From Anaerolineae bacterium (GTDB lineage: Bacteria; Chloroflexota; Anaerolineae; JAAYZQ01), in assembly GCA_034435455.1 (NCBI GenBank), contig DAOTXL010000137.1:54687-118686 (forward strand): a DNA stretch of 64,000 nt, given 5' to 3'. The position numbers were made by a program, and so were the translations under genes. Below the pieces are notes generated by a model, which ran no database searches, was not told the DNA's origin, and saw nothing but the letters and a program-made list of their open reading frames with translations. Below are positions 3,941-55,481 of this stretch, piece after piece (position 1 is the stretch's first letter; each line of letters begins with the position of its first letter).

Positions 3941-4881
3941 TATTCCTCCCCGGTCGCATCCCATAGGTAGCGGATAGAGTATTCCTCTTCTGCCCGAAAG
4001 GTCATGTGGCGCAGCATCTCGCCCAGCAGGCCCACGCTGACAAGCTGGATGCCCACCACCAGGGCGGTGATGCCGAAGAAGAGCAGGGGCCGCCAGCCGA
4101 TCCCCCCCTCGATCAGCCATAACGCCGTCAGGTAGAGCATGATGACCGTGCCGATGGCGGCAAAGAGGCTGCCCGCCAGGCCGAACAGGTGCATGGGACG
4201 CTTCAGATAGGTGGTCAAAAAGAGCACACTGAGAAAGTCCAGATAGCTGCGGACAAAGCGCCGCCCGCCGAACTTGGAACGCCCGAAGCGACGGGGATGG
4301 TGAACGACCGGCACTTCGGCGACCCGATAACCCTTCCAGTGGGCCAGGACCGGGATGTAGCGGTGAAGCTCGCCATACAGGCGGAGCTCCTGAACCACCG
4401 GGCGGCGGTAGACCTTGAAACCGCAGTTGAGGTCGTTGAGCCGGATGCCGGTCAGGGTTGAGACGGTCCAGTTGGCAAAACGGGAAGGCCACCGTTTGGA
4501 GACCGGGTCCTGACGCTTCACCCGCCATGCCCCCACCAGGTCGTACCCTTCCTCCAGCCTGGCCAGCAGCCTGGGCAGTTCGGCCGGGTCATCCTGCAGA
4601 TCGGCATCCAGGGTGACCAGGATCTCGCCCTGCGCCCGGGCAAAGCCGGCACTCAGCGCCGCCGTCTTGCCAAAGTTGCGCCGGAACTGCACGACCCGCA
4701 CGTGGGCCCGGTCTCGTTCGTACAGGTCATGCAGGATGGCCGGGGAGCGGTCGGTGCTGCCATCGTCCACAAAGAGGATCTCGTACGGATAGGGCAGCGA
4801 GCCGGCGACCTGGGTCACCGCCTGGTACAGGAGCTCCAGCGAACCTTCCTCGTTGAGCACCGGGATGACAAACGAAATCAT
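3940..4881 (-). CDS. GT2 polyprenyl-phosphate glycosyltransferase (DPM1/ArnC/GtrB-like) with C-terminal TM helices
   Basis: MISFVIPVLNEEGS...DDGSTD...DADLQDD motifs, followed by 2 TM segments. The start could instead be the upstream GTG/ATG (4896/4911). Confidence 0.75.
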   Translation of the reverse strand: MISFVIPVLNEEGSLELLYQAVTQVAGSLPYPYEILFVDDGSTDRSPAILHDLYERDRAHVRVVQFRRNFGKTAALSAGFARAQGEILVTLDADLQDDPAELPRLLARLEEGYDLVGAWRVKRQDPVSKRWPSRFANWTVSTLTGIRLNDLNCGFKVYRRPVVQELRLYGELHRYIPVLAHWKGYRVAEVPVVHHPRRFGRSKFGGRRFVRSYLDFLSVLFLTTYLKRPMHLFGLAGSLFAAIGTVIMLYLTALWLIEGGIGWRPLLFFGITALVVGIQLVSVGLLGEMLRHMTFRAEEEYSIRYLWDATGEE

Positions 4882-5013: not shown

Positions 5014-6117
5014 ATGAGAGGAAGGGGATGCTGGGGGCGGGCTTTGTTGGCGGCGCTGGCTCTGCTGGCCGGCGTGCCGCTCTCACCGCTGGTGACCCTG
5101 GGGCCACAACAGGTGGTGCCCAGTGTCAACCCCAAGTTGGGTGTCCACACCCGGCTGACCGACGAGGTCGAGCCGTGGAAGATCAAGCGCACGCTGGAAA
5201 TGGTGCGCGAGATGGGGGCGAGCTGGATCGTCGAATATTTCCCCTGGGCCTATTCCGAGCCGACGCCGGGCCGCTTTGACTGGAGCCACGCCGACCTGGT
5301 GGTGGATCACGCCCGCCGCCAGGGGTTGACCGTCATCGCCCGGTTGGGCTTTGTGCCCGAGTGGGCCCGGCCCGATCCGACGGTGCAGCCGACAACCTTT
5401 ACCTACCTGGACGAGGAGCATTATGACGATTTTGCCCGCTATGTCGCCGCTTTCGCGGAGCATTTTCGCGGGCGCGTGAGCCACATCGTCGTCTGGAATG
5501 AGCCGAACATCAGCCTGGAATGGGGCTATCGCCCGGTGGACCCGGAGGGCTATGTGGAACTGTTGCGTGCCGTCTATCCCCGCGCCAGGGCTGCCAACCC
5601 CGATCTGGTTGTGCTGGGTGGGGCACTGGCTCCCACCCTGGCCCCTGTGGGCGACCCGGAGGGCATGAACGACCTGGACTACCTGCGGCGGATGCTGGCT
5701 GCCGGAGCGGGCGAGGTGATGGACGGGCTGGCCGTCCACGCCTATGGCTGGCAAAAGCCACCCGATGCCCCGGCCAACCCCGCTGAGGTGAACTGGAACC
5801 GCACGGAGCTGCTCCGTCAACTGCTGGTCGAGGCCGGCTACGCCGACCTGCCGATTTACATCACCGAAGGGGGCTGGAACGACCATCCCCGCTGGACCAA
5901 GGCGGTGCCCCCTGCACAGCGGGCGGCCTTTACCGTGCAGGCCTATCGGCAGGCGTTGGAAGAGTGGCCCTGGTGCCGGGCGGTCGTCCTGTGGGCCTTC
6001 CGCTTTCCTCGCCCGGCCAACACCTACCAGGACTATTTCACCTTTGTCGGTGCCGATTTCACGCCCAGGCCGATCTACTTTGCCGTGCAACGCTATGCCC
6101 GGGGGGAGGGGCCATGA
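5014..6117 (+). CDS. Secreted/anchored clan GH-A glycoside hydrolase (GH5/GH39-like)
   Basis: N-terminal hydrophobic signal; VVWNEPN acid/base motif and ITEGGW nucleophile motif. A TATAAT box sits 8 nt upstream of the ATG (possibly leaderless). The start is uncertain (5005/5014). Confidence 0.6.
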   Translation: MRGRGCWGRALLAALALLAGVPLSPLVTLGPQQVVPSVNPKLGVHTRLTDEVEPWKIKRTLEMVREMGASWIVEYFPWAYSEPTPGRFDWSHADLVVDHARRQGLTVIARLGFVPEWARPDPTVQPTTFTYLDEEHYDDFARYVAAFAEHFRGRVSHIVVWNEPNISLEWGYRPVDPEGYVELLRAVYPRARAANPDLVVLGGALAPTLAPVGDPEGMNDLDYLRRMLAAGAGEVMDGLAVHAYGWQKPPDAPANPAEVNWNRTELLRQLLVEAGYADLPIYITEGGWNDHPRWTKAVPPAQRAAFTVQAYRQALEEWPWCRAVVLWAFRFPRPANTYQDYFTFVGADFTPRPIYFAVQRYARGEGP

Positions 6118-7706: not shown

Positions 7707-10028
7707 CTACTCCTGGTTCCCCCGCTTCTGGATGCCGTCCAGATAGGCGACGTCGCCGGTGTTCAGGTCGGCGGCGTTGGCTTCGTCGGTGTCCAGGTGC
7801 AATTCCAGCTTGAATTTGGGTGAAACCCGCACCACCACGTCGCCAAAGATCAGCTCCCGTTCGTCGCCGGCCCGGACGCGTACCACATCGCCGTCCTGCA
7901 GGCCGAGGCGGCGGGCGTCGTCGGGCGTCATGTGGATATGCCGCTGGGCATAGATGACGCCGTTTTTGATCTCGATCTGGCCGGCCGGGCCTTCCAGGAT
8001 CAGCCCCGGCGTGCCGTCCAGATCGCCCGACAGGCGCACAGGGGCGTTGATGCCCAGCCGGTAGCCCTCTGTCCGGGAGATCTCCACCTGGGTCAGGGTG
8101 CGTGCCGGGCCGAGGACCCGGACGTTCTCTATGCTGCTGCGGGGGCCGATGAGCCGCACCGTCTCTTCGGCGGCGTACTGGCCCGGCTGCGACAGGGGGG
8201 AGCGGGGGGTGAGTTGATGGCCGGCGCCGAACAACCGCTCCACGTCGGCCTGGCTCAGGTGGACGTGGTGGGCCGACACGCCGATGGGGATCGGGATTTT
8301 GCTGGCCTGCATCTGGCGGGTGATGGCCTGGTAGCCCAGGATGCGGATCGTCTCGCGGGCGATCATGCGCGAGGCATCCGAGTGAATGACCAGCACCTTG
8401 ACTTTGGAATCGGGGTGGGAGATCTCTTCCACGCCCGTTACCCCGTCGCGCACCGTCCGGTTTCTGACGGCGTCTATCAGGATGCCCAGGCCCCACATCC
8501 CCTGACAGGCCAGGGCCCGCACCCCGGCCGCGTTCTCCCCGATGCCGCCGGTAAAGACCAGCACATCCAGGCCGCCCAGGACAGCATAGTAGGCGCCGAT
8601 ATACTTGCGCACCCGGTAGGCAAACACCTCGGCGGCCAGCAGGGCCCTGGAGTCGCCGGCGTTGGCCGCAGCGGCGATCTCACGGGTATCGCCCGACAGC
8701 CCCGATAGCCCCTTCAGGCCGCTCTCCCGGTTCAGCAGGTCGTCGATCTGATCGGCCGACAGCCCCTGACGCATCAGGTAGGTGACGATAGCCGGGTCCA
8801 GGTCGCCAGAGCGGGTGACCATGACCAGTCCCTCCAGGGGGGTGAGGCCCATGCTGGTATCCACCGAGCGGCCATGGTCGATGGCGCACACCGAAGCCCC
8901 TTCGCCCAGGTGACAGGTGATGATCTTGAGGCGGGAAAAGGGCCTTTTCAGGTAGGTGGCCGCCATGAGTGCCACATAGTGGTGCGACGGCCCGTGGAAC
9001 CCGTAGCGGCGGATGCCCTCCCTGGTGTACAGTTCCTCCGGCAGGGCGTAGCGATAGGCGTAGGGGGGCATGGTCTGGTGGAAAGCGGTATCGAACACCG
9101 CCACATGGGGCACGTCGGGCAGCAGTTCGCGCAGCCACTCGATGCCCTGGGCCTGCATCGGGTTGTGGAGGGGGGCCAGGGGGGCCAGGCGGCGGATGTC
9201 GGCCAGCACCTGGTCGTCAATCACCACGGGGTTGGAGTACTTGTCGCCGCCATGGACCACCCGGTGGCCAACGGCTGTGATCTCGCCCAGGTCCTTGATG
9301 ACGCCGATCCTGGGATCGGTCAGCCGGTCGAGGACGGCCTGGAGCGCCTGCCGATGGTCGGCCTGGCCTAGCTCGAAGCGGTGCTCGCCGCTGACGGTCC
9401 GGTGGGTCTGGAGGGTGCCCGGCCGGTCAATCCATTCGATCTGCCCTTCGACATGGTGGCTTTCGTCGCCGGTGTCGAAAAAGCGGTACTTGAGCGACCC
9501 GGTGCGCAGGTTGATAACCAATATCTTTTGGGGACCTTCGGGGCCGGGGGTCAGGTTCAGGCCGTAGGGATCGGCCTCTTTTTCGGCCTGCTGGCGGATA
9601 TGTTCTTCTCTGTCTCGCTCGATCAACGTGCCGCGCCGGGCGACGGTCCTGGCAAAACGTTGGAGGGCTGCCGGATCGGCCTGGACCCAGCGGTGAAACA
9701 GATGGCCCGGCACCAGCAGCACCTGGCAGGGGGTGGTGGCGATCACATCTACCGGGGAGGGGATGCCGGCCATCAGCGACAGGGTGCCCAGCTCGCCGCC
9801 GGCCCGGATCGTATCCAGCCGGCGCGGCTCTCCCTCTTGTTCGGCGGTGAAAAAGCCGGCCTCTCCTTCCAGGATCACCCCGAAAAAGGTGAACGGCTGG
9901 CCAAAGGGGACGATCACCTCGCCCGGCGCATAGGGTGCGATCTGGGCCTGTTCCTCAATGGCCTGGGCGATCTCGGGCGGCAGGCCTTCAAAGACCGGGT
10001 ACCGGTTCAGGATTTCTCGCGTAATCAT
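7707..10028 (-). CDS. Tri-domain fusion: cNMP-binding domain + acetate/propionate kinase + PduL-type phosphate acyltransferase
   Basis: The N-terminus has a CAP effector domain (FFGVILEG...ELGTLSLMAG). The middle is AckA (ILVINLRTGS, VVHGGDKYS, HGPSHHYV, ITCHLGEGASVCAIDHGRSVDTSMG, VFTGGIGENAA). The C-terminus aligns nearly residue-for-residue with Salmonella PduL (GVSAHHVHLS, SQPGQYAAEETVRLIGP, AQRHIHMTP, HLDTDEANAA). Confidence 0.85.
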   Translation of the reverse strand: MITREILNRYPVFEGLPPEIAQAIEEQAQIAPYAPGEVIVPFGQPFTFFGVILEGEAGFFTAEQEGEPRRLDTIRAGGELGTLSLMAGIPSPVDVIATTPCQVLLVPGHLFHRWVQADPAALQRFARTVARRGTLIERDREEHIRQQAEKEADPYGLNLTPGPEGPQKILVINLRTGSLKYRFFDTGDESHHVEGQIEWIDRPGTLQTHRTVSGEHRFELGQADHRQALQAVLDRLTDPRIGVIKDLGEITAVGHRVVHGGDKYSNPVVIDDQVLADIRRLAPLAPLHNPMQAQGIEWLRELLPDVPHVAVFDTAFHQTMPPYAYRYALPEELYTREGIRRYGFHGPSHHYVALMAATYLKRPFSRLKIITCHLGEGASVCAIDHGRSVDTSMGLTPLEGLVMVTRSGDLDPAIVTYLMRQGLSADQIDDLLNRESGLKGLSGLSGDTREIAAAANAGDSRALLAAEVFAYRVRKYIGAYYAVLGGLDVLVFTGGIGENAAGVRALACQGMWGLGILIDAVRNRTVRDGVTGVEEISHPDSKVKVLVIHSDASRMIARETIRILGYQAITRQMQASKIPIPIGVSAHHVHLSQADVERLFGAGHQLTPRSPLSQPGQYAAEETVRLIGPRSSIENVRVLGPARTLTQVEISRTEGYRLGINAPVRLSGDLDGTPGLILEGPAGQIEIKNGVIYAQRHIHMTPDDARRLGLQDGDVVRVRAGDERELIFGDVVVRVSPKFKLELHLDTDEANAADLNTGDVAYLDGIQKRGNQE

Positions 10029-13390: not shown

Positions 13391-16090
13391 CTACAACGCT
13401 TCGACCTTGATGGCACACACCTTGAACTGCGGGATCTTGCCGACCGGGTCCAATGCGGCGATGGTCAGCTTGTTGGCTGCTGCTTCGGCAAAGTGCCAGG
13501 CCATGAACACAACGCCCGGATCGGTCCTGGGGCTGACCAGGGCCTCTGCTTCGACGGAGCCGCGCCGCGACGACAGGCGCACCCGTTGGCCGTCGGCGAT
13601 GCCCAGCCGGGCGGCGTCATCGGGGTTGATCTCGACCAGCGGTGCCGGGTAGATGGCCGTCAGCCCGGCCGACCGGCGGGTCATGGAGGTGGTGTGGTAG
13701 TGGTATAGCACCCGGCCGGTGGTCAGGATGAACGGATAGGTCTCGTCCGGCTCCTCGGCGGGCGGTTGCCAGTCCACGGCGCTGAACAGGCCCAGCCCGC
13801 GGCTGAACTTGCCTACGTGCAGGATCGGGGTGCCGGGGTGGTCGGGGTTCGGGCAGGGCCATTGCAGGCCCTGGTCACCGATGCGGTCGTAGGTGATGCC
13901 GGCGTAGCTGGGGGTCAGGCGGTTGATCTCGTCCATGATCTCCCGGGGCGAGGGGTAGGTCAGGCCGTCGTAGCCCATCCGGCGGGCGATCTGGCCGATG
14001 ATCCACCAATCGGGCCGGGCCTCGCCGGGCGATGGCACTGCCGGTCGGACAAACTGCACCCGTCGTTCTGAATTGGTAAAGGTGCCCAGCTTTTCCGCCC
14101 AGCTCTGGGTGGGCAGCACCACGTCGGCCAGGGCCGCTGTCTCGGTGAGGAAAATATCCTGGACCACCAGGAACTCCAGGCTGCGCAGGCACTGTTCGGT
14201 GTGGTTGGCGTCCGGATCAGATAGCAGGGGGTTTTCGCCCATGATGTACAGGGCGCGGATTTCGCCGGTTTCGGCCCGGGATAACATCTCGGTCACCGTC
14301 AGGCCCACTTGATTGGAGAGGGGCACTCCCCAGGCCTCTTCAAACTTTTTCCGACTGGCCTCCAGGGTCACGGCCTGGTAGCCGGTGTAGACGTTGGGCA
14401 GGCCGCCCACATCGCATGCGCCCTGGACGTTGTTCTGACCGCGCAGGGGGTTGACTCCGCCGCCCGGCAGGCCGATATTCCCCAGGAGCATCTGCAAGTT
14501 GGCGCAGCTCAGCACGTTCCGGTGGCCGGTGTTGTGCTGGGTGATGCCCATGGCGTACAGCATCGCGCCCGGTTTGTGGGCCGCCAGCAGGTGGGCCGCT
14601 TCGACGATCTGTTCGGCCGGCACACCGCAGATCGCCGCCACCCGCTCCGGCGGGTATTCCAGGATTTTGGCTTTGAACTCCGCAAAGCCCTCGGTCCGTT
14701 CGGCGACGAACTGTTTGTCGTACAGATCCTCGGTGATCAGGACGTGCATGATGCCGTTGAGCAGGGCGATGTCGGTGCCCGGTTTCTGGCGGATGTGGAG
14801 GGTGGCGTATTCGGCGATGGGGATGGTGCGCGGGTCACACAGGATGATCCGGGCGCCCCGCTGCTTCACCGCCTGGCGGAGCCGCATGCCCAACACCGGG
14901 TGGTTTTCGGTGGTGTTGGAGCCGATGATCAGGTAGATCTGGGCCTGTAGGGCGATATCGTCGAAGGAGTTGGTCATCGCCCCGGAGCCGAAAGCTGTGA
15001 CCAGACCGGTCACGGTCACGCTGTGTCAAAGGCGAGCACAGTGGTCTACATTGTTCGTTCCCATCACAGCGCGGGCGAACTTTTGCATGACATAATTCTC
15101 TTCGTTGGTGCATTTGGCCGAGGCCAGGGCGGCGAACGCCGAGGGCCCATACCGGTCCTTGATCTCCCGCAGCCGGGTGGCAACCAGGTCGAGGGCCTCG
15201 TCCCAGGTGGCCTCTTCCAGCTCGCCCCCCTTTTCTCGACGGATCAAAGGCCGGGTCAGCCGGTCGGGGTGGTGGACGAAATCCCAGCCGAAACGCCCCT
15301 TGACGCAGAGCCAGCCGTGGTTGGCCGGGGCGTCCCACTTGGAAGCCACGCCCAGGATGCGCCCGTCTTTGACCTTGAGGTAGAATTGGCAGCCCACGCC
15401 GCAGTAGGGGCAGGTGGTCGCCACCTGGGTCATCTCCCAGGCCCGGCCCTGACCCTGACCCAGGAGGGGGTGCAGCGCCGCCGTTGGGCACAGTTCGACG
15501 CACATGCCGCAGAATTCGCATGGGCTGTCCTGGAGCGTGCCGTCGAAAGCGGTGCCGATCTTGCTTTCCCAGCCGCGCCAGATGACGCCGATGGCCTCCA
15601 CGCCGTTGATCTCCTGGCAGGCGCGGACGCAACGGCGGCAAAGGACGCACTTGTTATAGTCGCGGATGAAGAACGGGTTAGAGGTGTCCAGGGGGTAGTG
15701 GTGCTGGGCGCCGGGGAAGCGGCTCTGTTTGATGCCGTATTGATAGGCCAGGTCTTGTAGCTCGCAGCTCCCCGTCCGCTCGCAGGTCATGCAATCCAGG
15801 GGATGGTCCGAGAGCAGCAGTTCCAGGACAAACCGCCGGGCTTCCTCCACCTGGGGCGAGTGGGTCTTGACCTCCAGGCCATGGGTTGCCGGAAAGGTGC
15901 AGGCCGGTTGCAGCGTCCGCTGCTGCGCCACTTCTACCAGACACAGGCGGCAGGCACCGATGGGGGCCAGGGCGGGGTGATGGCACAGGGTGGGGATTTT
16001 GATGCCCGCGGCGGTGGCTACCTCCAGGATCGTCTGCCCCTCTCGGGTCTGGATTTTCTGTCCGTTGATGGTAAGGGTCACCGTTGTCAT
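13391..16090 (-). CDS. fdhA: Formate dehydrogenase catalytic (alpha) subunit, selenocysteine-containing: N-terminal 2Fe-2S/4Fe-4S (NuoG-like) domains plus molybdopterin domain
   Basis: ORFs 15026..16090 and 13391..15019 are in the same frame and separated only by TGA. Read-through gives ...[33 protein letters not shown], which aligns to E. coli FdhF ...CARV-U-HGPSVAGLHQSVGNGAMSN. Confidence 0.8.
14990..15025 (-). ncRNA. SECIS-like hairpin directly 3' of the in-frame UGA
   Basis: mRNA reads UGA CAC AGC GUGACC-GUGACC-GGUCU-GGUCAC: a 6-bp stem with a GGUCU apical loop about 15 nt after the UGA. E. coli fdhF has GGUCUG at the same place. Confidence 0.5.
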
Positions 16091-19100: not shown

Positions 19101-19242
19101 TGTGCACCACCTGGACCTCACCTGCCAGCCCCTGGCGTTCGACCTCCTGCACCAGGGCCTGGTAGACGCCGGTCGATCCAGAGGCTTCGCAGCCGGTTCC
19201 GCCGCAGACCAGCACACTGGCCCGATAGATTGCTTCGGTCAT
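16141..19242 (-). CDS. Multidomain flavoprotein: NuoE-like [2Fe-2S] + NuoF-like (FMN/NAD, 4Fe-4S) + 2x[4Fe-4S] + GltD/NfnB-like FAD/NAD(P) oxidoreductase domain
   Basis: 1033 aa. VLVCGGTGCEASGS...CRGFCAMGP, then GRGGAGFATGIKW and ESCGKCIPCR, then two CxxCxxCxxxCP ferredoxin motifs, then VAVVGSGPAGLTAA...VGVVGGGNVAIDAAR...VFAAGD. Confidence 0.8.
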   Translation of the reverse strand: MTEAIYRASVLVCGGTGCEASGSTGVYQALVQEVERQGLAGEVQVVHTGCRGFCAMGPVMIIYPDGIFYCQVQPEDVPFLVEETLLKGRVVERLTYKEPSAHQAVPFYGEIPFYSKQLRITLRNCGMIDPENIEEYIARDGYQALVKVLSSMTPAEVIEEVKASRLRGRGGAGFATGIKWELTAKAPGDVKYVVCNADEGDPGAFMDRSLIEGDPHSLIEGMTICGYAVGAREGYIYCRAEYPLAIKRLKIAIAQAEEYGLLGDNILGSNFSFRLYVKEGAGAFVCGEETALLASIEGRRGEPRPRPPFPAVRGLWNKPTNLNNVKSYCNVPQIILRGAEWFANIGSPRSPGTAIFALTGKVNNTGLVEVPMGITLGEIIFDIGGGVPNGKRFKAVQTGGPLGGCIPAEHLNVRVDFDSLKEVGAVMGSGGMIVVDEDTCMVEFARFFLTFATAESCGKCIPCRMGGKRLLEVLARITKGQGRLEDLDAIRQIAAGMETGSLCALGQLTPGPINAALRYFEDEFRAHIVEKRCPAGVCKELVRARCTNACPADVDVPSYVALIAQGRYAEGLEIHRRTNPFPLVCGRVCPAFCQSRCRRGDIDEPIAIRAVKRFMADHELKNPWTPPLLGKPKTEKVAVVGSGPAGLTAALRLAQQGYRVTVFEKLPIPGGMMAVGIPDYRLPKEILQVEIDNIRRAGVEIRCNQALGRDFTLDSLLEQGYSAVVLAIGAHYSGRLRIEGEEKEGVIHGVDFLRDVALGHAPDLKGKRVGVVGGGNVAIDAARTAWRLGASQVHILYRRRRDEMPAYKEEIEAAEEEGTVFHFLTNPTRVLGDGHVTGVECLRHTLGEFDRSGRRRPVPLSGSEFVLDLDVLIPAIGQTPDPDGLAGQVEVRRDNTLLVNDALATSRPGVFAAGDAVSGPASVVEAVAQGNAVARTVDYYLQTGRVEPIITIPGYEVVDQPFNLDDYAQAHPPEMPELPVEERRGNFREVELGLDERAAQEECKRCLRCDLEWLQEMELAFEPVPPRQVGSLV

Positions 19243-19283
19243 CTCTATCCTCTTCCTATTGTTGTCCGATGCCGGTAACTGTT

Positions 19284-19326
19284 CAGGTGCCAGGCACTTG
19301 GGCGAATTCTACAAGTGCCTGGCACC
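19284..19326. promoter_or_regulatory. Dyad-symmetric element, copy A: two AAGTGCCWGGCACTT-type 15-mers separated by 13 bp
   Basis: aactgttcAGGTGCCAGGCACTTgggcgaattctacAAGTGCCTGGCACcc. It lies in the 5' region of the fusion flavoprotein gene, between two copies of a 27-bp direct repeat (19248-19274 and 19336-19362). Confidence 0.5.
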
Positions 19327-19343
19327 CGATAGTAACCCTCTTC

Positions 19344-19733
19344 CTATTGTTGTCCGATGCCGGCGGTGGGTACCCGGCCCATGGCCCATTCCTGAATGAC
19401 CCGGCCGTGGATCAGATGCTCTTCGATCAGCCGGGGTACCATGTCAGGGTGGACGTTGCAGTAGGTAATGCGCGGTTGGCCCGCCTGTTCGATATCCACC
19501 AGCGGTTCTTTGGAGCACATCCCGATGCAACCGACCGTGGAGACATGGGCATCAATCCCCCGCTTTTGTAGTTCGGCCAGGATGGCGTGCATGGTCTCGC
19601 GGGCACCGGCGGCGATGCCACAGGTGCCCATGCCGACGACGATCCGGGTCCCCGTCTCGGTCCGGACTTTGAGGGCTTGTTGGGCTTGTTCGCGGATTTT
19701 TTGCAGTTCGTCAATATTTTTGAGCCTGGGCAT
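19344..19733 (-). CDS. Thioredoxin-like [2Fe-2S] ferredoxin (HndA/NuoE C-terminal-domain-like)
   Basis: VVGMGTCGIAAGARE...VGCIGMCSKEPLV cysteine pattern. Confidence 0.7.
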   Translation of the reverse strand: MPRLKNIDELQKIREQAQQALKVRTETGTRIVVGMGTCGIAAGARETMHAILAELQKRGIDAHVSTVGCIGMCSKEPLVDIEQAGQPRITYCNVHPDMVPRLIEEHLIHGRVIQEWAMGRVPTAGIGQQ

Positions 19734-51456: not shown

Positions 51457-52674
51457 ATGAAGCCAAAATTGCGAGAGGTTGAAGCCCATCCCATCCGCTA
51501 TCAGGGCCAGCCGATGATCCTGCTGCGCGACCCGCTGCGCCTAAGCGATGCCCAGATCGCCGTCCCCCGGCCCCTGGCTCCGCTGCTGGGGCTGATGGAC
51601 GGCAGCCGCGACGAATCAGAGTTGGAGGCGGCGCTGCTGCTCCGCGCCGGGGTGCGGCTGGCCCCTGGCCTGCTGTCCAAACTGCTGGCCGACCTGGACG
51701 CGGCCTGCCTGCTGGACAATGAGCGTTTTGCCGAGGCCAAAGCGGCCGCGTTGCGGGCCTACCGCGAAGCGCCCTTTCGCCCCCTGGCCTCCCTGGATGG
51801 TTCTGGAGCGGCTGACGACCCCGACCGGGTGGCCGCTCATTTGCAAGGCTATCTGGACGCCCTGCCGCCGGCGGAGCAGCCGGCAGACGACCGGCCGATC
51901 CGGGGCCTGATCAGCCCCCACATTGATTACCAGCGCGGCGGGCCGGTGTATGCCCAGGTGTGGCGGGCGGCGGCCCAGGCGGCCTGCCAGGCCGAGCTGG
52001 TCATCATCCTGGGCACCGATCACCAGGGCGACGACGGCACGCTGACCCTCACCGGCCGGTCGTATGCCACGCCGTGGGGGGTATTGCCCACCGATGATGA
52101 GGCGGTGGCCGCCCTGGCAGAGGCGTTGGGCCGGGAAGCGGCCTTTGCCGGAGAACTGAACCACCGCAGTGAACACTCGGTCGAACTGGCCGCCGTATGG
52201 CTCCACTTTATCCGTGGCCGTCGGCCGGTGTCGCTGCTGCCGATCTTGTGCGGAAGCTTCGGCGGCTTTATAGCCGGTACGGGCGATCCGGCTACCCATC
52301 CACCCTTTGTTGCTGCCCTGGAGGTGCTGCGGAGGGTGATGGCCGCCCGCCGGACGTTGGTGGTCGCCGCCGCCGACCTGGCTCACGTTGGGCCGGCCTT
52401 TGGCGACCCCAGAGGGTTGGATTTTATCGCCAGGGCCCAACTGCACAACGCCGACGAACGGTTGCTGGCGGCGGTCTATGCCGGGGATGCGACCGCCTTT
52501 TTCGAGCAGTTAAAGGCCGAGGGTGACCGGCGGCATGTATGTGGCCTGCCGCCCATCTATCTGACATTGCGGCTGTTGGACGGGGCGCAGGGGGAGCCGG
52601 CCGGCTACGCCCAGTGCCCGGCCGATCCGCAGGGGCTATCGTGGGTGACGATTGCCGGAGTAATTCTACGGTGA
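51457..52674 (+). CDS. MEMO1-family (AmmeMemoRadiSam system protein B-like) with a 130-aa N-terminal extension
   Basis: ISPHIDYQRGG...ILGTDH...AAADLAHVG...HVCGLPPI core motifs; the ATG directly follows the upstream TGA. Confidence 0.7.
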   Translation: MKPKLREVEAHPIRYQGQPMILLRDPLRLSDAQIAVPRPLAPLLGLMDGSRDESELEAALLLRAGVRLAPGLLSKLLADLDAACLLDNERFAEAKAAALRAYREAPFRPLASLDGSGAADDPDRVAAHLQGYLDALPPAEQPADDRPIRGLISPHIDYQRGGPVYAQVWRAAAQAACQAELVIILGTDHQGDDGTLTLTGRSYATPWGVLPTDDEAVAALAEALGREAAFAGELNHRSEHSVELAAVWLHFIRGRRPVSLLPILCGSFGGFIAGTGDPATHPPFVAALEVLRRVMAARRTLVVAAADLAHVGPAFGDPRGLDFIARAQLHNADERLLAAVYAGDATAFFEQLKAEGDRRHVCGLPPIYLTLRLLDGAQGEPAGYAQCPADPQGLSWVTIAGVILR

Positions 52675-52686
52675 GGGGAACTGTTC

Positions 52687-52721
52687 AGGTGCCAGGCACT
52701 TTCTACAAGTGCCTGGCACCT
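52687..52721. promoter_or_regulatory. Dyad-symmetric element, copy B (two AAGTGCCWGGCACTT 15-mers, 5-bp spacer)
   Basis: aactgttcAGGTGCCAGGCACTTtctacAAGTGCCTGGCACct, between the Memo-like gene and the DUF4139 gene. Confidence 0.5.
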
Positions 52722-52762
52722 TTGGCGAGTCGGTCTGAATAGTAGCGGGGAAAGGAGCAAAT

Positions 52763-54720: not shown

Positions 54721-55257
54721 TTACCGGGCTGCCTCGGCGAGCATATCCAGCAATGCCTGGCGTTTTTCGGCGTACTGGGGCTCGTCGAACAGCGGGGTGC
54801 AGGCCTTTACTTCGGCCTCGCCAACCGTGATCTGGCCGGCAAAGGCAAAGCAGGAGGGCTGGCCGCACCGCTTGCAGTTGGTCTGGGGCAACAGCCTGTA
54901 AACCTCCATGGCCACCAGGCGCTTGCGGGTCGTGTGGAGCGGCGTCAGGTTGTCACGGTCCATCCAGATGCGGTTGATGGCGGCGATGATCTTTTCCATC
55001 TGGATGGCAGCCGTGTCGCGGTCCGGCAGGTTGCTGATGGTGATCTCGTGGGGTTTCAAGGCCACGGCATGGCCTTCGAAGCGGAGGGTGATTTGCCGGG
55101 CGGCCGGGCTATAGATGGCCTCTTTCCACTGGGCGTTGAGGTAGGGGAACACCTCGCTGATCTCCTCCTCAAAGCGGGCTGTGGCGTTCCAATACTCGGC
55201 GCCGGGCTCGCAGGCCGGGGCCTCCAGATGCATCTCATAATCTTTGGCAATAAACAT
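54721..55257 (-). CDS. Putative Fe-S cluster protein with a CFeSP-like motif (PF04060-type)
   Basis: ...VYRLLPQTNCKRCGQPSCFAFAGQ... matches the corrinoid-FeS-protein N-terminal LPKTNCGxCGxPTCxAFA motif. GGAGGAGCG RBS before MFIAKDY. Confidence 0.5.
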   Translation of the reverse strand: MFIAKDYEMHLEAPACEPGAEYWNATARFEEEISEVFPYLNAQWKEAIYSPAARQITLRFEGHAVALKPHEITISNLPDRDTAAIQMEKIIAAINRIWMDRDNLTPLHTTRKRLVAMEVYRLLPQTNCKRCGQPSCFAFAGQITVGEAEVKACTPLFDEPQYAEKRQALLDMLAEAAR

Positions 55258-55350
55258 CGCTCCTCCCCAGGTCCCCGATGCGTCGGCCGGGGCAGGGGTA
55301 GTATACCATGCTCTGCCGCAAAGGTCAAACCGGCGGGATGGGCTGCTGTT

Positions 55351-55365
55351 CAAGTGCCAGGCACT
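55351..55365. promoter_or_regulatory. Dyad-symmetric element, copy C (single perfect unit AAGTGCCAGGCACTT)
   Basis: gctgctgttcAAGTGCCAGGCACTTtcg in the divergent intergenic region between 54721..55257 (-) and 55482..56432 (+). Confidence 0.45.
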
Positions 55366-55481
55366 TTCGCTTCCAGATGGGAGATACCCTGGCCCGGCCA
55401 ATTTGACAAAAGTCAGAAAATGACTATAATTATATTTTATTGGTGCTGGCTGGGAGAAAATCAAGAAAGGGAGGGTGATTC

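What the first reader, a model, noticed from the sequence alone, without database searches (positions are those of the whole stretch)
19273..19336. Dyad-symmetric AAGTGCCWGGCACTT element present three times in the window (also 52687-52721 and 55351-55365)
The 15-mer is an almost perfect palindrome (7-1-7). Copies A and B each contain two units and share the identical left flank AACTGTTC, so this is either a dimeric transcription-factor operator or a small repeated hairpin-forming element. Copy A lies in the 5' region of the FDH fusion-flavoprotein gene. Copy B lies between the Memo-like and DUF4139 genes. Copy C lies in a divergent promoter region. No known operator consensus that I recall (Rex, CRP/FNR, CIRCE, NtcA) matches it.
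Basis: seen in the sequence. Interest (0 to 1): 0.55.

Follow-up and report, generated by a model that had tools for sequence, protein, structure and literature searches.

The report
Decayed MITE copies with hairpin ends
The repeated palindrome is not a regulator's binding site but the inverted-repeat core of a small non-coding jumping element (a MITE with IS66-type ends) that is scattered through Anaerolineae genomes; the three copies here are shortened, decaying insertions, which is ordinary biology.

Summary
In detail: five GTGCCWGGCAC units lie at three sites, where chance predicts 0.24. The operator reading is not supported.

**What the palindromes are.** In each two-unit copy the units are reverse complements of one another. 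They are the inner inverted repeats of a mobile element of about 144 bp: 8-bp target duplication | GTAAGCGTTCAG-GTGCCAGGCAC-TT…68 nt…AA-GTGCCTGGCAC-~38 nt-CTGAACGSTTAC | duplication.

**How widespread it is.**
- Exact-pattern scans found it in 15 contigs of about 10 Anaerolineae MAGs.
- They also found it in 114 metagenome stretches.
- The element lies at unrelated, mostly intergenic loci.
- Of 28 copies with a recognisable right end, 14 have 8-bp flanking repeats matching at 7/8 or better. The shifted control gives 0 of 28 at 5/8 or better.

**What family the ends point to.** Ends that begin GTAAGCG together with 8-bp duplications are the published hallmarks of IS66-family insertion sequences. 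No autonomous partner was found.

**Why it is not an operator.** All three window copies are internally deleted or truncated. They are shared with a strain 97.5% identical, where they have decayed further. They are absent from the orthologous sites of the next relatives (82–91% nucleotide identity), although the neighbouring promoters and ribosome-binding sites are conserved there.

**What stays unexplained.** Copy A is flanked by a perfect 27-bp duplication that regenerates a stop codon and a ribosome-binding site.

**Verdict.** This is a new, apparently undescribed member of a known kind, of low-to-moderate interest.

The parts
19249..19275 (.). Left copy of the perfect 27-bp direct repeat flanking copy A (CCTCTTCCTATTGTTGTCCGATGCCGG). 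On the - strand it carries the ribosome-binding site used by the 1033-aa gene and a duplicated, unused 3' end plus stop codon of the HndB-like gene.
   Evidence: repeat D1, 100% identical
19276..19336 (+). Copy A, a 61-nt miniature derivative. Left end (G)TAACTGTTCAG, inner repeat AGGTGCCAGGCACTT (19285-19299), 13-nt loop, inner repeat AAGTGCCTGGCACCC (19313-19327), right end CGATAGTAAC. It folds into a near-perfect hairpin.
   Evidence: A profile of 80 outside copies hits 19276-19300 at E 7.7e-6.
19337..19363 (.). Right copy of the 27-bp direct repeat. It contains the functional stop codon (19344-19346, - strand TAG) and the last codons of the 129-aa HndB-like gene.
52677..52746 (+). Copy B, an internally deleted element of about 70 nt that keeps both degenerate termini. 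Left end GGAACTGTTCAG, inner repeats at 52687-52701 and 52707-52721, a shortened right arm, and right end CTGAATAGTAGC. It is flanked by, and partly overlaps, an imperfect 8-bp repeat: GAGGGGAA (52673-52680) and GCGGGGAA (52745-52752). It was inserted between the Memo stop codon (52672-52674) and the ribosome-binding site of the 644-aa gene.
   Evidence: E 4.5e-6
55342..55395 (+). Copy C, a truncated or decayed copy. It has a degenerate left end GCTGCTGTTCAA, a single palindrome AAGTGCCAGGCACTT (55352-55366) and about 30 nt of possible interior remnant. There is no second unit and no right end. The right boundary is uncertain.
   Evidence: E 2.5e-4. A single-unit state can arise by deletion between the two units, as seen at site B in L189.
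55300..55328 (-). Sigma-70-like promoter of the FeS-domain gene (TTGACC-17-TATACT). It is not part of the element. It is listed because copy C sits between it and the next promoter.
   Evidence: conserved in L191, which lacks the element
55403..55430 (+). Sigma-70 consensus promoter (TTGACA-16-TATAAT, 12/12) of the PrsW-family gene. It is not part of the element.
   Evidence: conserved in L189 and L191

Best explanation
The three sites are old insertions of a miniature inverted-repeat transposable element (MITE) family that is spread through Anaerolineae.

**Intact element (143-144 bp, no ORF).** It reads GTAAGCGTTCAG | GTGCCAGGCAC | TT…~68 nt variable interior…AA | GTGCCTGGCAC | ~38-nt right arm | CTGAACGSTTAC, and it is flanked by an 8-bp target-site duplication. 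This is why each two-unit copy is one long hairpin.

**Inferred mechanism.** A DDE transposase encoded elsewhere binds the GTAAGCG… termini, cuts the element out or copies it, and inserts it at staggered cuts 8 bp apart. The termini and the 8-bp duplication point to an IS66-family TnpC.

**Shown here.** After insertion the copies drift neutrally. They shrink by deletion between short repeats or between the two palindromes, giving 28-41-nt inner forms and single-palindrome remnants.

**The window's copies.**
- A is a 61-nt mini-form.
- B is a form of about 70 nt that still has both degenerate ends.
- C is a left-end fragment.
- A and B share subfamily-specific ends (AACTGTTCAGG…TCTACAAGTG…ATAGTA), so they come from one sublineage that was active in this organism's ancestor.

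**Inferred only, side effects.** Copies A and B place very stable RNA hairpins between co-transcribed genes. These could alter mRNA processing or stability, as described for other bacterial MITE and REP elements.

**Confidence.** The figure of 0.88 applies to the MITE reading. The sub-claim that the ends derive from the IS66 family I put at about 0.65.
For: **Many copies at unrelated loci.**
- The exact 20-mer TGTTCARGTGCCWGGCACTT occurs in 16 GTDB genome stretches. Fifteen are in Anaerolineae MAGs, with 1-3 per MAG.
- AGYGTTCAGGTGCCAGGCAC occurs in 114 metagenome stretches.
- After de-duplication about 90 loci remain, each with different flanks.

**Conserved architecture that the search pattern did not require.**
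- The second, inverted unit AAGTGCCTGGCACCT is present in most copies.
- Among the metagenome hits, the span from the start of unit 1 to the end of unit 2 is 90-96 nt in 77 hits, 99 nt in 12, and 28-37 nt in 10.
- A right arm ending in CTGAACGSTTAC gives total lengths of 143-144 bp in 17 of 28 copies.

**Target-site duplications.**
- Of 28 unique copies with a recognisable right end, 8 have perfect 8/8 flanking repeats and 6 have 7/8.
- In the control with the left flank shifted, no copy reaches 5/8.
- At least two more (L107, L115) become perfect 8-mers when the register is shifted by one base.
- Two copies in one MAG (L003, L006) are homologous exactly from the left end to the right end and then diverge. 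They carry different 8-mers: TCCGTCGT and GCTTCCTC.

**Presence or absence at orthologous sites.**
- Site A is filled in the window and in L020 (97.5% nucleotide identity). It is empty in L022 and L023, where the intergenic spacers are 34 and 24 nt.
- Site B is empty in L191, where the Memo stop TAA runs straight into AAAGGAG.
- Site C is absent in L191, although both promoters are conserved there.

**Decay.**
- In L020, site A has 7 changes in about 100 nt of element plus repeats, against 1 in about 100 nt of coding flank. The changes include hits in both palindrome cores.
- In L189, site B lost 20 bp, which collapsed the two units into one.
- L014 and L015 are an orthologous site carrying a short and a long form.

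**Membership of the window copies.** An nhmmer profile built from 80 distinct outside copies finds exactly the three window sites and nothing else (E 4.5e-6, 7.7e-6 and 2.5e-4).

**Location.** Elements are depleted from long open frames: 24/95 against 369/475 for random positions, at a threshold of 150 codons.

**IS66-type ends.**
- A published IS66-family IR reads GTAAGCGTCCGGCGAACTCACCTT (PMC12888890).
- The same IR lies 7 nt from an annotated IS66-family transposase gene in a Pseudomonas plasmid. It matches the MITE terminus at 10 of the first 12 bases.
Against: - No autonomous element with these ends was found. There are no transposase domains among the window ORFs screened with Pfam. tblastn with IS66 TnpA, TnpB and TnpC found nothing in about 0.8 Mb of fetched Anaerolineae-type DNA. 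No pair of inverted termini lies 0.4-5 kb apart enclosing a gene.
- The assignment to IS66 therefore rests only on the terminal sequence and the duplication length.
- Copy A is flanked by a 27-bp duplication, not an 8-bp one. A 14-bp repeat (L071) and a repeat of about 25 bp (L138) also occur. Canonical IS66-type insertion does not explain these.
- Half of the 28 copies tested show no clear duplication. Old age or mis-set ends could explain this, but I did not prove it.
- Copy number per genome could not be measured. The source genome is not among the GTDB representatives that were scanned.
Confidence: 0.88

Rival explanations
1. The palindrome is the operator of a dimeric transcription factor, for example the cNMP-binding or GntR proteins encoded nearby, and it co-regulates the FDH/Hnd-type operon, the Memo/644-aa pair and the FeS/PrsW divergent pair.
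For: - The 7-1-7 dyad symmetry is typical of operators.
- Copy C lies between two divergent promoters, 18 nt and 37 nt upstream of their -35 boxes.
Against: - The motif is absent at all three orthologous sites in the nearest other species, while the promoters and ribosome-binding sites are conserved.
- The palindrome cores are mutated or deleted in a strain 97.5% identical.
- Copies A and B lie between a stop codon and the next ribosome-binding site, inside operons.
- The same sequence is part of a 144-bp element with target duplications at about 90 unrelated loci next to unrelated genes.
Confidence: 0.03
2. It is a REP/BIME-type element, that is, a repetitive extragenic palindrome mobilised by a RAYT (IS200/IS605-like Y1 transposase).
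For: - It is a short GC-rich extragenic palindrome occurring in inverted pairs.
- A CTAC/GTAG tetranucleotide lies next to unit 2 in copies A and B.
Against: - Intact copies have terminal inverted repeats and 8-bp target-site duplications. Y1-transposase elements do not make these (established knowledge).
- The CTAC is not conserved across the family.
- The density is about 3 per 64 kb, and additional units are sparse in the other fetched loci.
- No Y1 or RAYT gene was seen among the window ORFs screened.
Confidence: 0.03
3. The copies are MITE-derived in origin but have been exapted. The hairpins at A and B would act as intercistronic RNA stabilisers, RNase III sites or attenuators that tune relative expression within the operons.
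For: - The hairpins are very stable (dG -40 and -31 kcal/mol, z -7 and -5).
- They sit exactly between co-directional genes.
- They have been retained in two strains that are 2.5% diverged.
- At site A the 27-bp duplication keeps both the upstream stop codon and the downstream ribosome-binding site intact.
Against: - The stems are being eroded in the sister strain. At site A there are two core mutations, and at site B the hairpin is lost through a 20-bp deletion.
- No T-run follows the stems, and no terminator was called.
- There are no expression data.
Confidence: 0.08
4. The CTGGCAC in the motif is the -24 element of sigma-54 promoters.
For: TGGCAC is the sigma-54 -24 consensus (established knowledge), and it is present in every unit.
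Against: - No TTGC-like -12 element lies at N5 in any window copy: TGGCAC-CTTTG-GCGA, TGGCAC-CCGAT-AGTA and TGGCAC-TTTCG-CTTC.
- The motif is palindromic and is part of a mobile element.
Confidence: 0.01

Closest known systems
IS66-family insertion sequences and non-autonomous derivatives of them
   Same: - The terminal inverted repeat begins GTAAGCG. The MITE's GTAAGCGTTCAG compares with the Pseudomonas IS66-family GTAAGCGTCCGG at 10 of 12 bases.
- The target duplication is 8 bp.
   Different: - The element is 144 bp with no tnpA/tnpB/tnpC genes.
- No autonomous partner has been identified.
- The host clade is Anaerolineae. The paper read here says most IS66 members are in Proteobacteria, with some from Bacteroidetes/Chlorobi and Firmicutes.
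- The left end carries a self-complementary 11-mer immediately after the terminal 12 nt, and this 11-mer is repeated in inverted form about 38 nt from the right end.
- Occasional 14-27-bp flanking repeats occur.
Correia elements (Neisseria) and ERIC/IRU elements (enterobacteria). This comparison is from my own knowledge and was not tested here.
   Same: - They are extragenic elements of about 100-150 bp that fold into long imperfect hairpins.
- They occur as full-length and internally deleted forms.
- They are often co-transcribed with neighbouring genes.
   Different: - There is no sequence relationship.
- Correia elements duplicate TA, and ERIC elements show no target duplication. Here the duplication is 8 bp.
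- The host phylum is different.
REP/BIME elements with RAYT transposases
   Same: They are short GC-rich extragenic palindromes, often in inverted pairs between convergent or co-directional genes.
   Different: REPs lack terminal inverted repeats and target duplications and depend on a Y1 transposase. The intact form of this family has both.

Membership tests
MITE (miniature inverted-repeat transposable element) | Small size (under about 300 bp) with no coding capacity | tested here: met
   The full form is 143-144 bp and the window forms are 61 nt, about 70 nt and a fragment. At 143-144 bp the element cannot hold a transposase gene; I did not list its ORFs.
MITE (miniature inverted-repeat transposable element) | Terminal inverted repeats | tested here: met
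   The left end is GTAAGCGTTCAGGTG. The reverse complement of the right end is GTAAGCGTTCAGGTG(G). About 15 nt are shared.
MITE (miniature inverted-repeat transposable element) | Target-site duplication of fixed length flanking independent copies | tested here: met
   14 of 28 copies have 8-bp repeats matching at 7/8 or better. The control gives 0 of 28 at 5/8 or better. For the window copies themselves: B is 7/8, A has a 27-bp repeat instead, and C has none detectable.
MITE (miniature inverted-repeat transposable element) | Multiple copies at unrelated loci, with presence/absence polymorphism at orthologous sites | tested here: met
   About 90 distinct loci were found. Empty orthologous sites exist for A, B and C.
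MITE (miniature inverted-repeat transposable element) | A cognate autonomous element with the same ends that supplies the transposase | tested here: not met
   None was found in the window, in about 0.8 Mb of fetched loci or in viral contigs. Whole genomes could not be searched, so absence is not shown.
IS66 family (as source of the ends) | Terminal IR of 20-30 bp that starts with GTAAGCG | tested here: met
   The family consensus starts GTAAGCG. The criterion comes from PMC11946415, and an example IR comes from PMC12888890 and L192. The window copies are degenerate: GTAACTG, GGAACTG and GCTGCTG.
IS66 family (as source of the ends) | 8-bp direct target repeats | tested here: met
   the criterion is
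IS66 family (as source of the ends) | Mobilisation by a TnpC-type DDE transposase (tnpA-tnpB-tnpC element in the same genomes) | not testable with these tools
tblastn of Pseudomonas TnpA, TnpB and TnpC against the held loci gave no hit.
REP/RAYT | No target duplication, and an associated Y1 (RAYT) transposase | tested here: not met
   8-bp duplications are present. No such gene appears among the window ORFs screened.
Transcription-factor operator | Conservation at orthologous regulatory regions, and a consistent position relative to promoters | tested here: not met
   The motif is absent in L022, L023 and L191 at all three sites, while the promoters and ribosome-binding sites are conserved. 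Positions are heterogeneous: two copies are intercistronic and one lies between promoters.
Known RNA families (Rfam) | A match to a curated covariance model | tested here: not met
   There was no hit in the window at gathering thresholds. There was no hit in a full-length copy at E<=1.

The most novel reading that the evidence does not exclude
The short, almost fully palindromic derivatives, such as copy A, may spread or be fixed by a non-canonical route that produces long target duplications of variable length (14-27 bp).

In this reading, a hairpin-form DNA would be inserted at widely staggered nicks, or by template switching at a stalled fork. Such an event can land inside tightly packed operons without destroying the upstream stop codon or the downstream ribosome-binding site. 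The resulting intercistronic hairpin would then be kept because it tunes expression of the hnd/FDH operon.
Probability: 0.08. Interest if true: 0.5.

Novelty: new member of a known kind. Interest (0 to 1): 0.22.

Why it matters
**Practical.** The finding removes a false regulatory lead. It also gives annotators of Anaerolineae and Chloroflexota MAGs a defined repeat family, with a consensus, a 144-bp architecture and an 8-bp duplication. This family breaks assemblies and mimics operators, terminators and sigma-54 boxes.

**Biological.**
- IS66-type termini have been active in a phylum where I could find no description of this family. No paper in the searchable library mentions the motif or an Anaerolineae MITE.
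- The data give a clean natural series of MITE decay: full length, then internal deletion, then a single palindrome.

**The one odd point.** The perfect 27-bp duplication at copy A exactly regenerates a stop codon and a ribosome-binding site. It would deserve a look if more examples turn up.

Tried and rejected
- **Operator hypothesis.** Rejected by the three orthologous empty sites.
- **IS200/IS605 or REP-like element with a fixed left target 'TGTTC'.** I considered this early, because the left flank looked constant and the right flank did not. I rejected it once the real right end and the 8-bp duplications were found 25-40 nt beyond unit 2.
- **attC- or CRISPR-like 'constant length, variable interior'.** Rejected, because the interiors are homologous but diverged subfamilies.
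- **Sigma-54 promoter.** Rejected, because there is no -12 element.
- **Intrinsic terminator.** No T-run follows the stems, and none was called.
- **Search for the autonomous partner.** All of the following failed:
  - Loci with a solo left end (L011, L012) carry ordinary genes, namely a nitrogenase-like oxidoreductase, an AI-2E transporter and others.
  - No inverted termini lie 0.4-5 kb apart around a gene.
  - The viral-contig scan with GTAAGCGTTCAGGTG gave 49 hits, all chance matches in coding sequence.
  - tblastn with Pseudomonas IS66 TnpA, TnpB and TnpC against all held loci gave no hit.
  - L102 shares the first 55 nt of one subfamily and then diverges, but the contig ends 120 nt later. 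The only open frame is about 30 codons, so I ran no further search on it.
  - Orphan right ends in L062 and L066 turned out to be another repeat of about 115 nt, not an IS.
- **Rfam.** No family matched.
- **Literature searches** for the motif, for 'Anaerolineae + MITE' and for 'IS66 + MITE' found nothing relevant to this family.
- **A crude ORF-overlap test using only the 17-nt left end** was too permissive. I replaced it with the whole-element test.

Full report
**1. The observation**

The 15-mer AAGTGCCNGGCACTT, allowing up to 2 mismatches, occurs five times in the window: at 19285, 19313, 52687, 52707 and 55352. All five are on the + strand. Shuffles give 0.24 on average, and none of 100 reaches 5. 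The 11-nt core GTGCCWGGCAC is exact at all five sites.

Copies A and B share AACTGTTCAGGTGCCAGGCACTT and TCTACAAGTGCCTGGCACC. All three copies share CTGTTCARGTGCCAGGCACTT. The observation therefore stands.

Two things were missed.
- In A and B, unit 1 (AGGTGCCAGGCACTT) and unit 2 (AAGTGCCTGGCACCT) are reverse complements. Each copy is one long hairpin rather than two independent dyads. The folds give dG -40.2 kcal/mol (z -7.1) for A and -30.7 kcal/mol (z -5.1) for B.
- Copy A is bracketed by a perfect 27-bp direct repeat, 19249-19275 and 19337-19363.

**2. Gene context**

- **Copy A** lies in the 101-nt spacer between a 129-aa HndB-like 2Fe-2S protein gene (19344-19733, -) and a 1033-aa NuoF/GltD-type fusion gene whose ATG is at 19242. 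It is not inside the flavoprotein gene. On the coding strand, each copy of the 27-bp repeat contains the last codons of hndB, its TAG stop and the GGAAGAGG ribosome-binding site. Both genes therefore stay intact.
- **Copy B** lies between the TGA of the Memo-like gene (52672-52674) and the ribosome-binding site of a 644-aa gene.
- **Copy C** has a single unit. It lies between a 178-aa FeS-domain gene (ATG at 55257, - strand) and a PrsW-family gene (55482, +). More precisely, it sits between their two divergent sigma-70-like promoters.

No tRNA gene and no Rfam family lie in the window.

**3. The same sequence elsewhere**

Scanning one genome per GTDB species for TGTTCARGTGCCWGGCACTT gave 16 stretches. 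Fifteen are in Anaerolineae MAGs from about ten assemblies, with 1-3 per MAG. The window's own organism is not among them. Its contigs come from Logan assemblies of SRR10095340 and SRR10095342, and from an NCBI contig.

In almost every hit the pattern is followed by AAGTGCCTGGCACCT, which the search did not require. The inner span is either 93-95 nt or 29-41 nt. The interiors differ between loci but fall into recognisably homologous subfamilies. The short forms are internal deletions of the long ones. Examples:
- L016 compared with L004.
- L014 compared with L015, which are the same locus in two species.

**4. The true ends**

Two copies in one MAG (L003, L006) are homologous from (G)CAAGTGTTCAGG to …CCTCTGAACGCTTA(C/T). 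That right boundary is about 45 nt beyond unit 2. Directly outside those boundaries lie different 8-mers, each repeated on both sides: TCCGTCGT and GCTTCCTC.

A metagenome scan with AGYGTTCAGGTGCCAGGCAC returned 114 stretches. Among those hits, inner lengths are:

| Inner length (nt) | Hits |
|---|---|
| 90-96 | 77 |
| 99 | 12 |
| 28-37 | 10 |

The consensus architecture is: 8-bp repeat | GTAAGCGTTCAG-GTGCCAGGCAC-TT…AA-GTGCCTGGCAC-CTTGACGGCTC.CCCCACCATCCAC-CTGAACGSTTAC | 8-bp repeat. The total length is 143-144 bp.

Of 28 de-duplicated copies with a recognisable right end, 8 have perfect and 6 have 7/8 flanking 8-mers. With the left flank shifted by 9 nt, no copy reaches 5/8. At least two more (L107, L115) are perfect when the register is shifted by one base.

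Elements avoid long open frames: 24/95 lie in a frame of 150 codons or more, against 369/475 for random positions.

A profile built from 80 distinct outside copies recovers exactly the three window sites and no others (E 4.5e-6, 7.7e-6 and 2.5e-4). Alignment shows that copy B keeps both degenerate termini (GGAACTGTTCAG…CTGAATAGTAGC) and an imperfect 8-bp flank (GAGGGGAA and GCGGGGAA). Copy A keeps both termini around a 13-nt loop. Copy C is a left-end fragment.

**5. Insertion, not a conserved site**

Close relatives were fetched through homologues of the flanking proteins. GCA_037439345 is 97.5% identical to the window over 18.6 kb. The other relatives are 82-91% identical.

| Site | 97.5% strain | More distant relatives |
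|---|---|---|
| A | Element and both repeat copies present, with 7 changes in about 100 nt against 1 in about 100 nt of coding flank. Changes include GTGCC→GTACC and GGCAC→GGTCC in the cores. | L022 and L023 have 34- and 24-nt spacers with no element. |
| B | Lost 20 bp, fusing the two palindromes into one. | In L191 the Memo stop TAA runs directly into AAAGGAG. |
| C | Element present, with one base change (AAG→AGG) | L191 lacks the palindrome and is 26 nt shorter between the two -35 boxes, which are themselves conserved. |

So the element is lineage-specific, evolves at least as fast as neutral sequence, and is not needed by the promoters it neighbours. This disposes of the operator reading.

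**6. What kind of element**

The evidence is small size, no ORF, terminal inverted repeats, fixed-length target duplications, many unrelated loci and empty orthologous sites. Together these make it a MITE.

The termini point to a parent family. The IS66 family is described as having 20-30-bp IRs that start with GTAAGCG, and 8-bp direct repeats (PMC11946415). A published IS66-family IR is GTAAGCGTCCGGCGAACTCACCTT (PMC12888890). I verified that this IR lies 7 nt from an annotated IS66-family transposase gene in a Pseudomonas plasmid. The MITE terminus GTAAGCGTTCAG matches it at 10 of 12 positions.

I could not find the autonomous partner.
- No transposase domain appears among the window ORFs screened.
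- There is no tblastn hit to IS66 TnpA, TnpB or TnpC in about 0.8 Mb of held loci.
- No gene-sized pair of termini exists.
- Viral contigs gave only chance hits.

'IS66-derived' is therefore an inference from two family hallmarks. I put it at about 0.65. I put the MITE call itself at about 0.9.

**7. How it works**

*Shown:* the architecture, the duplications, the insertion polymorphism and the decay routes.

*Inferred:*
- A transposase supplied in trans recognises the GTAAGCG… ends and inserts the element at 8-bp staggered cuts.
- Copies then erode. The two 15-nt inverted repeats promote deletion (L189) and even inversion of the interior (L138).
- Copies A and B share subfamily-specific features (AACTGTTCAGG, TCTACAAGTG, a right end in ATAGTA). 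This suggests that a short sublineage amplified in this organism's ancestor.

Any effect on host genes is speculative. A hairpin of -40 kcal/mol inside the hndB-flavoprotein-FDH operon, and one of -31 kcal/mol between Memo and its neighbour, could in principle affect mRNA processing. The erosion of both hairpins in the sister strain argues against strong selection.

**8. What remains unexplained**

The 27-bp perfect duplication at copy A does not fit an 8-bp mechanism. Two other long flanking repeats were seen: 14 bp at L071, and about 25 bp (imperfect) at L138, where the right arm is truncated.

One mundane reading is selection. At a site where the stop codon overlaps the ribosome-binding site 13 nt before the next ATG, only a rare, widely staggered event would leave both genes functional. 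I could not test this.

**9. Novelty and verdict**

Nothing in Rfam matches the element. Nothing in the searchable literature matches it either.

The finding is a previously undescribed family of a very familiar kind. It is useful for annotation and mildly interesting for IS66 biology in Chloroflexota. It is not a new regulatory system.

Noticed in passing
window 15026-15028 (- strand), within the FDH alpha gene 13391-16090: An in-frame TGA lies at the conserved active-site position (HCARL-U-HS), followed by a GTGACC…GGTCAC hairpin. The two mechanical ORFs (354 aa and 542 aa) are therefore probably one selenoprotein gene. The strain 97.5% identical (L020 5839-5841) has TGC (Cys) at the same codon, which is a within-species Sec/Cys difference. 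The more distant relatives L022 and L023 also show the split (Sec) form.
   Followed up: partly
window 7707-10028 (- strand): A 773-aa three-domain fusion: cyclic-nucleotide-binding domain, acetate kinase and PTAC-type phosphotransacylase. It is conserved in the relatives (L020, L024, L025). This is an unusual single-polypeptide Pta-Ack with a cNMP sensor.
   Followed up: no
window 55403-55430 (+) and 55328-55300 (-): A perfect 12/12 sigma-70 consensus promoter (TTGACA-16-TATAAT) lies upstream of the PrsW-family gene. A divergent TTGACC-17-TATACT promoter (with TG) serves the FeS-domain gene. Both are conserved in a relative about 82% identical that lacks the element.
   Followed up: partly
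L007 (Lentibacillus halophilus NZ_BAAADM010000029.1) 1510-1535, 4495-4520, 5247-5295: The motif AATTCTGAATTGTKYRS-GTGCCWGGCAC occurs three to four times in 5.7 kb of a Bacillota genome. It has the same 11-nt palindrome core but a different flank and no MITE architecture. One copy sits directly upstream of a ribosome-binding site. It may be an unrelated repeat or binding site.
   Followed up: no
L062 (reverse strand, first 165 nt) and L066 (reverse strand, 120-250): A second small repeat of about 115 nt ends in GTGAACGCTTAC, the same kind of terminus. Its inner inverted repeat is different (GAAACCGGGTTTTT and GAAAAACCCGGTTTC). In L066 it lies directly next to a copy of the main family. Several non-autonomous families may share one transposase.
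   Followed up: partly
L138 700-900 (- strand); L039; L101: Structural variants of the family:
- In L138 the interior is inverted relative to the ends, and the copy has a truncated right arm and an imperfect flanking repeat of about 25 bp.
- In L039 a unit of about 38 nt is triplicated inside the element (inner length 204).
- In L101 a hairpin of about 35 nt is inserted in the right arm.
   Followed up: partly
L189 1575-1600 compared with window 52687-52721: A 20-bp deletion in the sister strain removes exactly one palindrome plus the loop. It leaves a single GTGCCAGGCAC. This is direct evidence for how single-unit remnants such as copy C arise.
   Followed up: yes
L022 4503-4907 and L023 10001-10408 compared with window 19344-19733: The HndB-like protein is 134-135 aa in the relatives that lack the element but 129 aa in the window lineage. 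The 3' end of the gene and the spacer were remodelled in the lineage that later received, or simultaneously received, the insertion.
   Followed up: no
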